From a virus, in the IMG/VR virus record IMGVR_UViG_3300032893_000018, positions 29,898 through 93,897 of that record: DNA of 64,000 bases; one strand, 5' to 3'. The stretch's first letter is position 1; every line of letters begins with the position of its first letter. Position numbers and translations under genes: made by a program. The notes under the pieces were generated by a model. That model did not search any database and had not been told where the DNA came from. It worked only from the letters and a program-made list of their open reading frames with translations. Below are positions 11,694-52,737 of the stretch, one piece after another.

Positions 11694-12052
11694 AGCGGCG
11701 CGTGCACCCGAACGTTCAAGCCGCGATCGACGAGATCGAGCGGCAGACGAAGGCGTTGAAGAAGCTCGCCGAGCTCGTCGACATGCTCGCGATCCCGACG
11801 TCGCGCGGCGGCGTGTATGTCACGGACTGGGAGCGCGAGTTCGTGCGGGGCCTCGCGATGAGGGTCGGCGAGGAATTGACCGACAAGCAGATCGAGAAGA
11901 TCGACCAAGTGCACGACGACCTGAGGAAGGGGCGCACGGCGCCGCAGGATCGCGACCCCGGCGCCGCGAACCTGTTCAGCAACATGGAGCCGGCGAAGCG
12001 GGCCGAGCAGTTCGCGCGGGCGAAGAAGGTGAAGCTGCCGTGGGAAAAGTAG
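11690..12052 (+). CDS. Hypothetical protein
   Basis: ATGA-coupled; TDWEREFV...LTDKQ motif. Confidence 0.6.
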   Translation: MKRRVHPNVQAAIDEIERQTKALKKLAELVDMLAIPTSRGGVYVTDWEREFVRGLAMRVGEELTDKQIEKIDQVHDDLRKGRTAPQDRDPGAANLFSNMEPAKRAEQFARAKKVKLPWEK

Positions 12053-31430: not shown

Positions 31431-32068
31431 TGCCCGTCCCGAAGCCGCTGCCGTCCGGCCCGGTCGCGCGCACGAAGCTCGCCCACAAGCTCGCGCGCCG
31501 CGCCGATCGCATCCGGCAGATCGCGACGAAGTTCGGCGCGATGCCGTACCGCGTCTTCCTGACGTGGGAGCGGTGGTCGGGCGGCAGGGTCGGCGCGGGC
31601 GACCCGGCCATCTACCGGCGCATCGAGCTCCTGCCGACGCCGCGCGTGGCCGACATGACGGCGATCACGCTGCGAACGACGCCGGTCGGGACGTTCCCCG
31701 AGGGGAGCCTGCGCGTCGACCGCGTGAGCTGCTTCGCGTACACGGAGGACGTCCTGCGCGGGCTCGCGATCCCGCCCGCCGCGCCGAACGAGCAGCCGCA
31801 GCTGCCGCCGATGATCGACCAGCGCGGGCCGGGCGCCGACGAGCGGTTCGGGCCGTCGATGGACTTCTACTACGAGGTGGTCGAAGACGGTCGCGGCGAC
31901 GACCCCGCCTATCGGAAGCGGTTCCGCATCATGGCGGGGCCGTGGAGGAACGCGACGGGCGTCGAGTGGGCGGTGGTGGTGCAGCGCGCGTCGCAGGACG
32001 ACGACCGCCGCGGACAGCCCGTCACGCCGGAGCAGGACGCGGCGCTCGCGCGGTTCTTCGGGCGGTGA
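31430..32068 (+). CDS. Putative head closure/stopper protein
   Basis: Position in head-tail module. Confidence 0.5.
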   Translation: MPVPKPLPSGPVARTKLAHKLARRADRIRQIATKFGAMPYRVFLTWERWSGGRVGAGDPAIYRRIELLPTPRVADMTAITLRTTPVGTFPEGSLRVDRVSCFAYTEDVLRGLAIPPAAPNEQPQLPPMIDQRGPGADERFGPSMDFYYEVVEDGRGDDPAYRKRFRIMAGPWRNATGVEWAVVVQRASQDDDRRGQPVTPEQDAALARFFGR

Positions 32069-32090
32069 CCGCGGCGGCATGATCGGATCG

Positions 32091-32264
32091 ATGGCCGATT
32101 GCTTGGTTTGCGCTGAGGCGAAACCCCTCAAGATTTGTGAGAAGTGCGGGTTGCAGATGGCCATCAGCATCTTGCAAAACGCGGTGCTGGACGATGGGCA
32201 GCAGCAGGAAGTGCTGAAGACCGCCGTCAAACGCGCGCTCGTACTGCTGGAAGCATTGGGTTGA
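32091..32264 (+). CDS. Small zinc-finger protein
   Basis: CLVC...CEKC; lower GC; first gene of the inserted cassette. Confidence 0.5.
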   Translation: MADCLVCAEAKPLKICEKCGLQMAISILQNAVLDDGQQQEVLKTAVKRALVLLEALG

Positions 32265-32320
32265 GTGCGGCATGACCTCCGAACGTGGGCCATCTTGACC
32301 CACCCAACAGGAGGCACGAC

Positions 32321-32995
32321 ATGACCAGGCAACCCAAGAAGGAATCGATCGACCGGGCGAAGGCGCTCATCACGGGCGGCGGGGAGGAGCGGGTGTCGCT
32401 CAAGGCGCCCGACCTGCGGGTGGCGACCTTCCACATCGTCGGCACCGCGCCGTACGTTCAGAACAAGTTTTCGAACAAGGCGCGCGAGATGATGAAGCAG
32501 ACCCAGATGATGGGGTCGCAGGCGAAGACCCGGAAGGTGCGCGAGCCGAAGGACTTCGACGCCGTGTACCGGGGCGCGATGCACCTCACCGAGGACGGTA
32601 AGTACGGGATCCCGGCGAACGCCTTCAGGTCGGCCTTGATCTCGGTGTGCCGCCTCATCGGGTTCAAGATGGTGCTCGCGAAGCTGTCGGTGTTCGTGCT
32701 GCCCGACGGGTTCGACGCGGACGATGGCACGCCGCTCGTGTTCATCAACGGCGAGCCGGTGGCGCACGAGACGGTCGGCAGGAACGACAACGGCAGCGCC
32801 GACATCCGCGTGCGCCCGATGTGGCGAGAGTGGTCGGCCGACGTGCGCGTGCGGTTCGATGCGGACCAGTTCTCGCACAAGGACGTCGCGAACCTGCTGA
32901 TGCGCGTCGGCATGCAGGCGGGCGTCGGCGAGGGGCGGCCCGACTCGAAGAACAGCGGCGGCATCGGCTGGGGCACGTTCGAGTTGGAGGGCTGA
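32321..32995 (+). CDS. Stand-alone RAMP/Cas7-like RNA-binding protein
   Basis: N-terminal strand FHIVGTAPY, YGIPANAFRSAL (RAMP IP-x-S-x-K/R helix), RVRPMWREWS, C-terminal Gly-rich loop GVGEGRP...GWGTF; AGGAGG SD. Confidence 0.75.
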   Translation: MTRQPKKESIDRAKALITGGGEERVSLKAPDLRVATFHIVGTAPYVQNKFSNKAREMMKQTQMMGSQAKTRKVREPKDFDAVYRGAMHLTEDGKYGIPANAFRSALISVCRLIGFKMVLAKLSVFVLPDGFDADDGTPLVFINGEPVAHETVGRNDNGSADIRVRPMWREWSADVRVRFDADQFSHKDVANLLMRVGMQAGVGEGRPDSKNSGGIGWGTFELEG

Positions 32996-32998
32996 GCG

Positions 32999-33442
32999 AT
33001 GGCCGAGATTACCGACAAGGTCATCGACAGGCTCGAGGCGCTGAGGAAGAAGGGAGGTGGCGTCCTCACGCCCGAGGCCGTGCTCGCCGACGCGAAGGCG
33101 AAGGCGAGCCCGCTCCACGCGCACTTCGACTGGGACGACACGGTAGCGGCGCACCGCTACCGGCTGATCCAGGCGGGGCAGCTCATCGTGCGCGTGAAGG
33201 TCACCATCGAGCCGCGGACGCAGCGCGACGTGCAGGTCGACGTGCAGATGTACGAGCAGACCGGGCAGGAGCAGGGCGAACGCGTGTACCGGCACATCGC
33301 CGACATCGCGACGAACGAGGAGTACTACGCCGAGCTGCTCGACTCGGCGAAGAAGGAGCTGCAGGCATTCCAAAGGAGGTATCAATCGCTCAAGGAGCTG
33401 CGGGCGCTCTTCGAGCAGATCGAGAAGTTGTTCGCGGCCTGA
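32999..33442 (+). CDS. Partner protein of the RAMP gene
   Basis: LTPEAVLADA...SPLHAHFDWDDTVAAHRYRLIQA motif; coupled to the RAMP gene. Confidence 0.7.
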   Translation: MAEITDKVIDRLEALRKKGGGVLTPEAVLADAKAKASPLHAHFDWDDTVAAHRYRLIQAGQLIVRVKVTIEPRTQRDVQVDVQMYEQTGQEQGERVYRHIADIATNEEYYAELLDSAKKELQAFQRRYQSLKELRALFEQIEKLFAA

Positions 33443-33445
33443 CCA

Positions 33446-33772
33446 CGCAGGCGCCGCATCTCTTCGCTCCGCGCCACAACACGGTCCTCCTCACCGCTCC
33501 GCAACGCAGGCTACGCCACGCCCCGCTTCACGCAACCCCGCCGCACCAGCCATCGCAGGCTACGCACCGTTCCGCCGCGCTACGCCCCGCCCGTACTCCG
33601 CCGCCCACTTCATCGCAGGCTCCGCTCCGCTCCGCCACGCGTGTCAGCACAACGCACCGCCACGCTCATCAGCTCACCGCAGGCCTCGCTCGTCTCTCCG
33701 GTCCTGGCACGGCTCATCTGTGCTTCGCAGGCATCGCCACGCACCGTCACGCATCGCATCGGCCGGCAACGC
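33446..33772 (+). ncRNA. Pentamer-periodic array of 6 units, putative guide RNAs
   Basis: CGCAGGC at 33446,33505,33554,33614,33678,33726; each followed by (NN-CGC-like)n pentamers; strongly C-skewed and intergenic. Confidence 0.75.
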
Positions 33773-33789
33773 TGGTTATCATCTGAACG

Positions 33790-34302
33790 GTGAAGGTCGA
33801 CCTCCGGGACGCCGGGCGCGCGCTCGCGCAGCTCGGCATCGGCATGAACCGAGCCGCTGAGCGCGGGCTCCTCTCCGCGGCGATCCGCGGCGTGCAGATC
33901 ATCCAAAGCCAGATCATCCCGTCGAAGGTCCCGCAGCCGGTCGACCGCGGGCTCTACCGCGCCGGGTGGAAGTGGGGGCCGGTGCCCGGCGGCGGCGAGC
34001 TGTGGAACTCGGAGCCGCACGCGCCGCTGATCGAGTTCGGCGTGCGCGCCGGGAACATCAAGGTCGGGCGCAAGATGATCGACGCGCTCACCGAGTGGGC
34101 GATGCGAAAGGGGATCGCGTCGGACCGCAAGGAGGCGCGCCGGGTGGCGTGGGCGATTGCGCGGCGCATGAAGAAGCGCGGGATCTTCAATCGCGGCCGC
34201 GGGCTCGGGATCCTCAAGGAGCTCATGACGAAACGCATGCCGGCGATCATCCGCGAGGAGATCAAGCTGGAGGTCGCGCGCGAGCTCGCTCGGCGGCAAT
34301 AA
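33790..34302 (+). CDS. Neck/tail-completion protein (HK97 gp10-like)
   Basis: PVDRGLYRAGW, HAPLIEFG, IARRMKKRG. Confidence 0.7.
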   Translation: MKVDLRDAGRALAQLGIGMNRAAERGLLSAAIRGVQIIQSQIIPSKVPQPVDRGLYRAGWKWGPVPGGGELWNSEPHAPLIEFGVRAGNIKVGRKMIDALTEWAMRKGIASDRKEARRVAWAIARRMKKRGIFNRGRGLGILKELMTKRMPAIIREEIKLEVARELARRQ

Positions 34303-46951: not shown

Positions 46952-48709
46952 GTGTACCGGCAGCCCGAGCAAAGCTACTACCCGAGGGCGCGGCTACGCC
47001 TCCTGATCCGGTTCGAGGACTACGGCGATCCAGGGACTCCGGCGGTTCCTGCGCGCATCCCGACGCTCCGCGGCGGCTCGAAGGACACGGGCGCGCCGGG
47101 GCGGCTGAAGGTCGTGAACAACGACGGAGTGCTGACGCTGGTGCAGCCGGGCACGAACCCGGCGACGGGGATCGGCGGGCCGCAGGACCAGACGACGAGC
47201 TCGGACGGGCTCACGCACGTCGTCGACGGCGTCGTGCCGATCTCAGCGCGCCACGAGCGGAACGGGATCCGACTCGCCGATAAGCTGACGTGCACGGTGT
47301 CGTTCGCCGACTTCCCGTTCGACCCGCGCACGATCCGCGCGTGCGCGGTGAAGTACTTCCTCGGGTGCATCTCGGCGGAGGACGCGGCGCGCGGCGCCGA
47401 GGGGCAGATGCGGCCGAACTCCACGGTGCTCGGCCAGGCGATGCCGTACCTGACGATCCCCGACACGTGGGTCGACTCGCTCGGGCGCACGCGGTCGAAC
47501 CAGCGCTTCTCTGGCTGGGTCGACACGGACGCGATGCAGCTCGACGACGACTCGGCGACGGTGCAGCTCGAGTGCACGGACAACACGCGGCGGTTCATCG
47601 ACCAGGACCACCCGTCGCAGCTGTTCGTCGCCGCCGACCGCCCGATCGACGAGGCGATCGCGAACTACCTCGCGTCGTTCCCGCAGTTCGTCGGCTTCTC
47701 CGTGGAGTACCGCCCGCGCGTGCAGCGCAGCGTGATCCCGCTCCTGTCGAAGGCGCTGTCGGAGACGTCGAAGCGCCCGGGCAAGGGGCCGCTCCAGGGG
47801 ACGCAGACGCAGAAGGTGTCGGTGTGGGACTACCTGACGGACGTCGCCGGGATGATCGGCCACATCATTCGCGTCGTCGACACGACGGTCGTCATCCAGC
47901 GGCCGCGCACGCTCTACCAGGGCGACTTCGTGCGCGAGGGCGACCCGTTCACGGGCCGCATCATCGAGCAGTCGGGGGGCGACCCGCTCGTGCTCCGCGC
48001 GCGGATGTACGGCTACGGCGCGAACGTGCGGTCGCTCGCGATCGAGCGCGGCTATGCGAAGCGCGCGCCGACGAACTTCGAGGTGCGGAGCTACGACACG
48101 GCGCGGAAGAAAACGATCTACATCCGGTACCCGGACCGGAACGACCGCGTGAAGTCGCTCCTGCCGGGGGAGGGCGCCGACCTGAAGTTCGAGGTGGTGC
48201 GCGTGCAGGGCGTGAGCGACCCGGAGACGCTGCGCGTGATCGCCCAAGCGCACTACGAGTCGCGGAACCGGAATGAGATCGTCGCGACGGTCGAGACGGT
48301 GAACCTCGGGTCGTTCGGCGGCGACAACCTCGACCCCGACGTGCTCGACCTGGAGGAGGGCGACCCGGTGCAGATCGAGGTGGTGCGTTCGGACACGGCG
48401 AGCACGGTGCAGAAGCTCGCGGCGGCGACCGCCGACGAGCTCGTCGCGCTCGGGTTCAAGTCGGACCTCGCCGCGGCGTACGTCGCCGCGCGCGATCGGA
48501 TCGCACTCCCGAACACGTTCCGCACGCGGCAGATGTCGACGGACTGGAGCAACGACAAGACCGTCGTGGTGAAGATCGCGGCGGTGAACTACGTCGTGGT
48601 GAGCGTCGACAAGACGCTGCCCGACGGTGAGGAGATCACGACGGACCAGCTCGAGGGGACGCAGGAGGACCGCGCTCAGGTCGTGAGCGTGGACGATCAG
48701 TTCGGATGA
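46952..48709 (+). CDS. Baseplate hub (gpD-like)
   Basis: Position; SVWDYLTDVA, YGANVRSL. Confidence 0.65.
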   Translation: MYRQPEQSYYPRARLRLLIRFEDYGDPGTPAVPARIPTLRGGSKDTGAPGRLKVVNNDGVLTLVQPGTNPATGIGGPQDQTTSSDGLTHVVDGVVPISARHERNGIRLADKLTCTVSFADFPFDPRTIRACAVKYFLGCISAEDAARGAEGQMRPNSTVLGQAMPYLTIPDTWVDSLGRTRSNQRFSGWVDTDAMQLDDDSATVQLECTDNTRRFIDQDHPSQLFVAADRPIDEAIANYLASFPQFVGFSVEYRPRVQRSVIPLLSKALSETSKRPGKGPLQGTQTQKVSVWDYLTDVAGMIGHIIRVVDTTVVIQRPRTLYQGDFVREGDPFTGRIIEQSGGDPLVLRARMYGYGANVRSLAIERGYAKRAPTNFEVRSYDTARKKTIYIRYPDRNDRVKSLLPGEGADLKFEVVRVQGVSDPETLRVIAQAHYESRNRNEIVATVETVNLGSFGGDNLDPDVLDLEEGDPVQIEVVRSDTASTVQKLAAATADELVALGFKSDLAAAYVAARDRIALPNTFRTRQMSTDWSNDKTVVVKIAAVNYVVVSVDKTLPDGEEITTDQLEGTQEDRAQVVSVDDQFG

Positions 48710-52383: not shown

Positions 52384-52737
52384 ATGCCCATCGTCGCCGA
52401 CAACGTCACCGAGACCACGACCATCGACATCCCGCAGCCGCCCGTGCAGGAGTCCCGCGTGCTCGACACGTTCATGATCACGCAGCTCACGATCGGCCTC
52501 CCGCCGAACGACGTTGCGAGCACGCGCATCAACGGCCAGCTCGAGCGCGGCTACCGCGACGACAAGGGCCAGTTCACGAGCGTCTCGACGACGTCGTTTC
52601 AGATCGCGGGCGCCGAACTCCTGAAGCTCATGGGCTCGCCCGTCACGCAGGGGCTCTCGCACTACGAGGACTTCAAGCAAACGATCTACGCCTTCCTGAT
52701 CGCCCGCGGCGACATCCCCGCGGGCACCGTGACGTGA
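52384..52737 (+). CDS. Hypothetical protein (possible fibre chaperone)
   Basis: ORF between fibre genes. Confidence 0.55.
   Translation: MPIVADNVTETTTIDIPQPPVQESRVLDTFMITQLTIGLPPNDVASTRINGQLERGYRDDKGQFTSVSTTSFQIAGAELLKLMGSPVTQGLSHYEDFKQTIYAFLIARGDIPAGTVT

What the first reader, a model, noticed from the sequence alone, without database searches (positions are those of the whole stretch)
33554..33920. Array dinucleotides read as NN.NN.NN match phage structural genes, skipping codon wobble positions
Seen by manual decoding with one skipped base between dinucleotides. Unit 6 (AT CA AC CA AT AT CC) matches ATcCAaAGcCAgATcATcCC at 33901-33920 in the neck gene just downstream (13/14). Unit 4 (TC CA GT AG AA AC, then CA TC AG AC) matches the minus strand of 31553-31569 in the upstream head-tail gene 12/12, with 4/8 in the next four pairs. 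Unit 3 (TC CG TA CC CG TC, needing one 1-nt bulge in the parse) matches the minus strand of 52543-52559 12/12. In all three the skipped base is codon position 3. Inference: the guides target homologous genes of related competing phages in a way insensitive to synonymous escape, and the self copies are imperfect. Caveat: I searched only in codon phase, and one such hit alone could be chance in a GC-biased 64 kb. Units 1, 2 and 5 gave no convincing hit.
Basis: partly seen in the sequence, partly recalled or inferred. Interest (0 to 1): 0.85.

Follow-up and report, generated by a model that had tools for sequence, protein, structure and literature searches.

The report
VIPR guide array; one likely target
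The repeat array belongs to a VIPR system, a CRISPR-like RNA-guided gene silencer of phages first described in 2026 that reads DNA two bases at a time and skips every third; of the three claimed matches only the one to the neck gene looks real, and it fits rival phages better than the phage itself.

Summary
All three gapped matches are in the sequence as described, with the skipped base at codon position 3. Within the phage's own 94-kb genome they are no better than shuffled guides or a skip-2 control.

The array itself is real. It sits next to a Cas7-like gene (vipr) and a partner gene (vap). About 70 related loci carry the same module. It fits the published VIPR system (bioRxiv 10.64898/2026.04.26.720920, .720927 and 2026.10.15.759431).

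Units 3 and 4 fail: 15/20 and 16/24 over the full guide, and unit 4 scores at most 13/24 at the homologous sites of relatives.

Unit 6 holds up. In 1 Mb of related VIPR-less phages it matches 15/16 and 14/16 at the homologous neck-gene site. Shuffled guides reach 15/16 in 0 of 200 and 1 of 500 trials. It spells the family consensus IQTQIIP, whereas the phage's own copy reads IQSQIIPS (13/16).

Unusually, the scaffold triplet here is CGC, not GGC.

This is a new member of a known kind. This scan has already found VIPR systems in at least 84 other genomes.

The parts
32079..32264 (+). 61-aa ORF with two Cys pairs (zinc-ribbon-like). It lies inside the inserted cassette, upstream of vipr. Whether it belongs to the system is uncertain.
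   Evidence: Read from the sequence and the ORF list. Relatives without VIPR have the p212 and neck genes adjacent, so 32069-33789 is an insertion.
32285..32995 (+). vipr, the Cas7/RAMP-like guide-binding protein. The likely true start is ATG 32321, which follows an AGGAGG.
   Evidence: The profile of 17 homologues hits PDB 36pp_D 'SUSP1 Vipr protein' at E 6.9e-5; the single sequence hits it at E 0.0024, with the thumb Arg and the G-loop aligned. The AF2 model (pLDDT 76) matches Cas7/Csm3/type VII Cas7 at prob 1.0, E about 1e-4. phrog_4652.
32999..33442 (+). vap, the vipr-accessory protein (147 aa). Its fold is not assigned.
   Evidence: phrog_15946. A homologue lies next to vipr in 62 of 71 related loci. 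AF2 pLDDT is 83 and Foldseek finds no PDB match.
33446..33504 (+). vrRNA unit 1: CGCAGGC then 11 pentamers. NN: GC AT TT TC GC AA GG TC AC TC AA.
   Evidence: Parse. Length 59 = 5n+4, the staggered layout.
33505..33553 (+). vrRNA unit 2. NN: TA CA CC TT GC CC CG CA AT.
   Evidence: Length 49 = 5n+4.
33554..33613 (+). vrRNA unit 3. It has a 1-nt register slip after the sixth pentamer.
   Evidence: Length 60.
33614..33677 (+). vrRNA unit 4, with 12 NN.
   Evidence: Length 64 = 5n+4.
33678..33725 (+). vrRNA unit 5. It is degenerate: 2 of 8 triplets conform and one base is missing.
33726..33772 (+). vrRNA unit 6. NN: AT CA AC CA AT AT CC AA. It is the last guide and abuts the neck gene.
   Evidence: It is the only guide with a match beyond the nulls.
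33790..34302 (+). Neck / tail-completion gene (HK97 gp10-like).
   Evidence: phrog_5. PF04883 on homologues.
33901..33923 (+). The phage's own, mismatched copy of the unit 6 target (IQSQIIPS, 13/16).
   Evidence: It is the unique best unit 6 hit in the whole genome. The homologous sites in relatives score 15/16 and 14/16.
31553..31569 (-). Unit 4 partial match (6 of 12 NN). Judged to be chance.
52543..52559 (-). Unit 3 partial match, which needs a bulge. Judged to be chance.

Best explanation
Window 32285-33790 is a VIPR cassette: vipr, vap and a six-unit 'staggered' vrRNA array. It is inserted between the head-tail gene and the neck gene of a 94-kb high-GC phage.

The mechanism below is taken from the studied SUSP1 system and is inferred here, not shown. 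The array is transcribed and cut into guides of about 50-65 nt. One Vipr protomer binds each pentamer, hides the constant triplet and presents the two variable bases. These pair with double-stranded DNA, skipping every third base, and silence the bound gene.

Of its three matches, only unit 6 is likely to be a real guide-target relation. Unit 6 spells the conserved IQTQIIP motif of the neck gene of related phages that lack VIPR, while the phage's own adjacent neck gene carries a Thr-to-Ser change and a different eighth codon (13/16). The unit 3 and unit 4 matches are chance.
For: Identity as VIPR:
- Sequence match to the solved SUSP1 Vipr and a Cas7 fold.
- Every one of about 70 loci with a vipr homologue has a 5-nt-periodic array beside it, while loci fetched through the neck gene have none.
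- vap co-occurs in 62 of 71 loci.
- Unit lengths of 5n+4, with guides overlapping by 1 nt at CGC-AG|GC, match the 'staggered arrays' of the paper.

The code: 1-nt skip, wobble-aligned, acting on dsDNA (papers).

Unit 6:
- In 1.02 Mb of related phage DNA the best skip-1 match is 15/16 (L101 10109-10131), and another is 14/16 with the first 7 NN perfect (G001 48554-48576, minus strand).
- Both are in frame at the site homologous to window 33901.
- Skips 0, 2 and 3 give 12-14.
- Order shuffles reach 15 in 0 of 200 trials, base shuffles in 1 of 500, and natural foreign guides in 1 of 89.
- 120 neck homologues have the consensus IQTQIIPS.
- The unique best own-genome hit lies 111 nt into the gene that abuts the array, which a random hit would do about 0.5% of the time.
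- The eight whole relatives have no vipr or vap.
Against: - Unit 6 has only 16 informative bases. After correcting for six guides, P is roughly 0.01-0.07.
- No perfect 16/16 neck target exists in IMG/VR. The 34 exact hits are all unrelated and mostly low-GC.
- Relatives' sites are homologous to the phage's own site, so their better scores rest on only one to three extra bases.
- The own copy, at 81%, formally passes the paper's >=80% target threshold.
- Units 1-5 found no target.
- The scaffold triplet is CGC, not GGY. Changing GGY abolished silencing in SUSP1, so activity here is unproven.
- Expression, processing and binding were not tested.
Confidence: 0.7

Rival explanations
1. The locus is VIPR, but all three matches, unit 6 included, are coincidences. 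The real targets are other mobile elements of the unknown host that are absent from the DNA searched.
For: - The own-genome scan gives no guide above its shuffles.
- Unit 6 has only 16 informative bases, and 34 perfect chance hits exist across IMG/VR.
- 299 guides of related loci show no excess of matches to their own flanks.
- 103 such guides show no skip-1 excess in 593 kb (both strands) of related loci.
Against: - Unit 6 reaches 15/16 in relatives, against 0 of 200 and 1 of 500 shuffles.
- The three best hits fall at one homologous, in-frame site.
- That site is in the gene abutting the array.
- The guide matches the family consensus rather than the phage's own allele.
Confidence: 0.22
2. 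Unit 6 acts on the phage's own neck gene. The imperfect 13/16 match just downstream of the array would let VIPR tune or time late gene expression.
For: - The own site is 81% matched, above the >=80% cut used for natural targets.
- It lies 111 nt inside the next gene.
- A functional SUSP1 guide has a footprint of only six units.
Against: - Published sets show no self-targets at >=80%.
- Relatives match better than self.
- The mismatch is at an amino-acid-determining base, as expected for an immune allele.
Confidence: 0.06
3. The array is a decaying or inactive remnant. The CGC triplets and the broken unit 5 mean that Vipr no longer loads these RNAs, so no match has any consequence.
For: - Only about 55-75% of triplets conform, and 2 of 8 in unit 5.
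- All other related arrays examined use GGC, apart from L080.
- GGY mutations abolished silencing in SUSP1.
Against: - The G-to-C change is systematic across units, not random decay.
- The third base C is kept almost everywhere.
- vipr and vap are intact with high GC3.
- The window's Vipr has a unique V212A in the G-loop, plus W106K.
- Another relative (L080) pairs a GTC scaffold with a unique change of the thumb Arg, so scaffold switches do occur together with protein changes.
- The paper accepts YNNNG-type repeats.
Confidence: 0.15

Closest known systems
VIPR systems with staggered vrRNA arrays (bioRxiv 10.64898/2026.04.26.720920, fig. S18)
   Same: Lone RAMP protein plus vap plus tandem pentamers with a constant triplet and a hypervariable dinucleotide. 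Guides abut with a 1-nt overlap. Carried by a phage.
   Different: The constant triplet is CGC (YNNCG) after a first GGC, rather than GGY. The array is more degenerate. The type (I-VII) could not be assigned because the paper's tables are not held.
Type II VIPR of Escherichia phage SUSP1 (PDB 36pp; bioRxiv 10.64898/2026.04.26.720927 and 2026.10.15.759431)
   Same: The thumb Arg (SUSP1 R138 = window R177) and the G-loop ...G-x-G-[DE]-x-R-P are conserved. The 1-nt-skip, wobble-aligned code applies. The target is a conserved coding motif of a competitor.
   Different: Sequence similarity is detectable only over about 46 residues. The G-loop Trp (W178) is Gly here. There is no long 3' tail or pseudoknot. 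The candidate target is a structural (neck) gene of sister phages, not a satellite recombinase.
Cas7 backbone of class 1 CRISPR effectors (Csm3, Cmr4, type VII Cas7)
   Same: The fold matches, and the protein binds a guide periodically, with a thumb that breaks the duplex.
   Different: Period of 5 nt with three guide bases hidden, rather than 6 nt with one. No CRISPR repeats, no cas1/cas2, no nuclease partner.

Membership tests
VIPR | Vipr protein: a minimal RAMP with RRM core, glycine-rich loop and thumb | tested here: met
   HMMER hit to SUSP1 Vipr 36pp_D. Foldseek gives Cas7 family chains at prob 1.0. The invariant G-x-G-E-G-R-P loop and R177 are present.
VIPR | Intergenic tandem 5-nt repeats with a constant triplet and a hypervariable NN, at least 4 units | tested here: met
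   Lag-5 autocorrelation excess is 0.24, against a window mean of 0.01 and sd of 0.044. Six units of 8-12 pentamers. The same holds in about 70 related loci.
VIPR | The constant triplet is GGY | tested here: not met
   The triplet is CGC in most pentamers; only the first pentamer of each unit is GGC. The paper admits related consensus forms, including YNNNG, which this fits.
VIPR | Adjacent vap accessory gene | tested here: met
   The 147-aa gene follows vipr. Homologues lie next to vipr in 62 of 71 loci.
VIPR | Viral or proviral location | tested here: met
   The record is a 93,897-bp phage rated 100% complete. The cassette lies between the head-tail and neck genes.
VIPR | Guides match natural targets under the 1-nt-skip rule, aligned to wobble positions | tested here: inconclusive
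   Unit 6 scores 15/16 and 14/16 in relatives' neck genes, in frame, and beats the nulls and the other skips. Units 1-5 have no target above the nulls.
VIPR | vrRNAs are expressed, processed and bound by Vipr; the complex silences dsDNA targets | not testable with these tools
   This needs small-RNA sequencing, pull-down and reporter assays.
Type II VIPR (SUSP1-like) | Guides of about 100 nt with a conserved structured 3' tail | tested here: not met
   Units are 48-64 nt and are separated only by CGCAGGC. Rfam finds nothing in the region.

The most novel reading that the evidence does not exclude
Two features go beyond what I found in the VIPR papers.

(1) Scaffold switching. This phage uses CGC/NN and a Gemmatales relative (L080) uses GTC/NN, while about 70 relatives use GGC/NN. 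Each switch comes with a unique substitution at an RNA-contact position of Vipr: V212A and W106K here, and the thumb Arg changed to Met in L080. This could create orthogonal Vipr-guide pairs that rivals' solo guide RNAs cannot hijack.

(2) Linkage. The guide sits directly beside the phage's own mismatched allele of the gene it targets in sister phages. That forms a linked killer-and-rescue pair which recombination would carry together.
Probability: 0.25. Interest if true: 0.65.

Novelty: new member of a known kind. Interest (0 to 1): 0.4.

Why it matters
- It shows that an unaided reader can recover the published non-contiguous VIPR code from raw sequence. It also shows that short partial matches (six dinucleotides) within one genome are worthless without shuffled nulls.
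- It adds a candidate natural target class, a conserved motif of a structural neck gene in sister phages, with an apparently immune allele right next to the guide.
- The CGC scaffold, and the GTC scaffold in a relative, point to natural specificity variants of Vipr. These could be tested as orthogonal programmable DNA-binding systems.

Tried and rejected
- Before the identification I considered a Rho utilisation site (C-rich, G-poor), a decayed pentanucleotide microsatellite, partition or packaging sites, and a TRAP-like ring-binding RNA. I dropped them once relatives showed G-rich GGC/NN arrays in the same orientation next to a Cas7-like gene.
- Rfam: only sub-threshold noise.
- Promoter and terminator scan: nothing in or around the array.
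- 103 guides of related arrays against 593 kb (both strands) of fetched loci: skip-1 was no better than skips 0, 2 or 3.
- 299 related guides against their own flanks: no excess.
- Exact-pattern scans:
  - Unit 4 (11 NN) in IMG/VR: none.
  - Unit 4 (10 NN) in metagenomes: none.
  - Unit 1 (10 NN) in metagenomes: five unrelated hits at about chance level.
  - Unit 6 (8 NN) in IMG/VR: 34 unrelated hits.
- Collection scans accept only exact patterns, so targets at 80-95% identity could not be sought there.
- vap fold: no PDB match.
- Host: vipr relatives occur in MAGs of many phyla, so no host could be inferred.

Full report
**The object.** Window 33446-33790 is a 345-nt C-rich, G-poor spacer (GC skew down to -0.40) between a 147-aa gene and the neck gene. 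It holds six units that each begin with CGCAGGC, at 33446, 33505, 33554, 33614, 33678 and 33726. Each unit continues with pentamers of two variable bases plus CGC. The 5-nt periodicity is the strongest in the window: the lag-5 excess is 0.24, against a mean of 0.01 and sd of 0.044.

**Checking the claim.** All three matches exist as written, with the skipped base at codon position 3. I then parsed every unit strictly and counted gapped hits on both strands.
- Skip-1 gave one 12/12 hit and two hits of >=13/14.
- Guides with shuffled dinucleotides gave means of 0.25 and 0.5 (P 0.19 and 0.11).
- The skip-2 control gave the same counts, one and two.
- Full-length guides against the whole 93,897-bp genome never beat their shuffles. 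Unit 6 scored 13/16 (shuffles reach this 16% of the time). The claimed unit 4 site scored 16/24 and the claimed unit 3 site 15/20.

The codon-phase agreement follows from searching only that phase.

**What the array is.**
- Every IMG/VR locus with a homologue of the upstream 236-aa protein has a strongly 5-nt-periodic array beside the gene. Loci fetched through the neck protein have none.
- In relatives the pattern is very clear: NN+GGC pentamers punctuated by (AC)CGCAGGC. A caller shows that consecutive guides overlap by one base.
- Fifty more loci from GTDB genomes of many phyla show the same pattern.
- A profile of the protein hits PDB 36pp_D, 'SUSP1 Vipr protein' (E 6.9e-5). Its AF2 model (pLDDT 76) matches Cas7-family chains at probability 1.0.
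- The partner gene accompanies vipr in 62 of 71 loci. Its fold is unassigned.

This is the VIPR system of three 2026 preprints. In those papers:
- Vipr protomers polymerise on a vrRNA of GGY/NN pentamers and hide the GGY.
- The NN pair with double-stranded DNA while skipping every third base, which silences transcription.
- Natural targets are competing mobile elements.
- The skip aligns with wobble positions, which blocks synonymous escape.
- 'Staggered arrays' with 1-nt overlaps are described (fig. S18).

**Genomic setting.** Eight complete relatives of this phage (85-100 kb) and 22 partial ones share the capsid, p212 and neck genes but lack vipr and vap. In them p212 and neck are adjacent. 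The cassette at 32069-33789 is therefore an insertion.

**Targets.** I scanned all guides against 1.02 Mb of these relatives. Only unit 6 stands out.
- It scores 15/16 in L101 (10109-10131, IQTDIIPN).
- It scores 14/16, with the first seven dinucleotides perfect, in G001 (48554-48576, minus strand, IQTQIIPS).
- Both sites are in frame and homologous to window 33901.
- Skips 0, 2 and 3 give 12-14.
- Order shuffles reach 15 in 0 of 200 trials, base shuffles in 1 of 500, and natural foreign guides in 1 of 89.
- Among 120 neck homologues the consensus at this site is IQTQIIPS, exactly what unit 6 spells. The phage's own gene has Ser (AGC) for Thr.
- The own-genome best hit is unique and lies in the gene that abuts the array.

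After correcting for six guides, P is about 0.01-0.07; the adjacency adds further weight.

Caveats on unit 6:
- It has only 16 informative bases.
- No perfect neck target exists in IMG/VR.
- The relatives' better scores rest on one to three bases beyond the shared conserved motif.

Unit 4 fails the homology test, with a maximum of 13/24 in 29 relatives. Units 1-5 found nothing convincing anywhere.

**An unusual feature.** Related arrays use GGC; this window uses CGC. The window's Vipr is the only one of 62 with Ala at the invariant G-loop Val212, which aligns with SUSP1 C173. It also has Lys at the 93%-conserved Trp106. One relative, L080, has a roughly 2-kb GTC/NN array and is the only sequence with Met in place of the thumb Arg that holds G2 in SUSP1. 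This hints at co-evolving scaffold specificities, but the window's count of deviations (6) is not extreme.

**Verdict.** This is a new member of a known kind. The code is already known, one of the three claimed targets is probably real, and two are chance. This scan has reported VIPR loci in at least 84 other genomes. Some of those notes also describe guides that sit beside the phage's own mismatched copy of the target. I could not confirm that layout as general in this clade.

Noticed in passing
L080:3700-5650: A Gemmatales MAG prophage carries a roughly 2-kb array of NN+GTC pentamers with GTCA|GTC staggering. Its Vipr is the only one of 62 with Met in place of the thumb Arg (window R177 = SUSP1 R138, which holds G2). 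This may be a second scaffold-specificity variant.
   Followed up: partly
window 32079-32264: A 61-aa ORF with CxxC...CxxC (zinc-ribbon-like) lies between the head-tail gene and vipr, inside the inserted cassette. A weak terminator-like hairpin lies at 32080-32101.
   Followed up: no
window 32285-32330: vipr probably starts at ATG 32321, with AGGAGG 7 nt upstream, not at GTG 32285. Homologues align only from about residue 34 onward.
   Followed up: partly
phage records BK059895.1, NC_028751.1, NC_023580.1, MN234179.1: Cultured phages carry homologues of this Vipr annotated as hypothetical proteins: Cyanophage Cy-LDV1 (53% identity), 27 Mycobacterium smegmatis phage records (Quico, Florinda, Saal and others, about 31%) and Gordonia phages. 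They would be tractable hosts for testing this clade.
   Followed up: no
L038, L039, L052, L069, L070: Some related loci have two or three separate pentamer arrays on both sides of vipr and vap, rather than one.
   Followed up: no
L014:5851-6291: A pentapeptide-repeat gene (15-nt period) lies about 1 kb downstream of a VIPR array. It gave a false lag-5 signal.
   Followed up: no
window 11713-11734 (minus strand): Unit 5 has a perfect 12/12 match under a 2-nt skip. It shows how easily six-dinucleotide matches arise by chance.
   Followed up: yes
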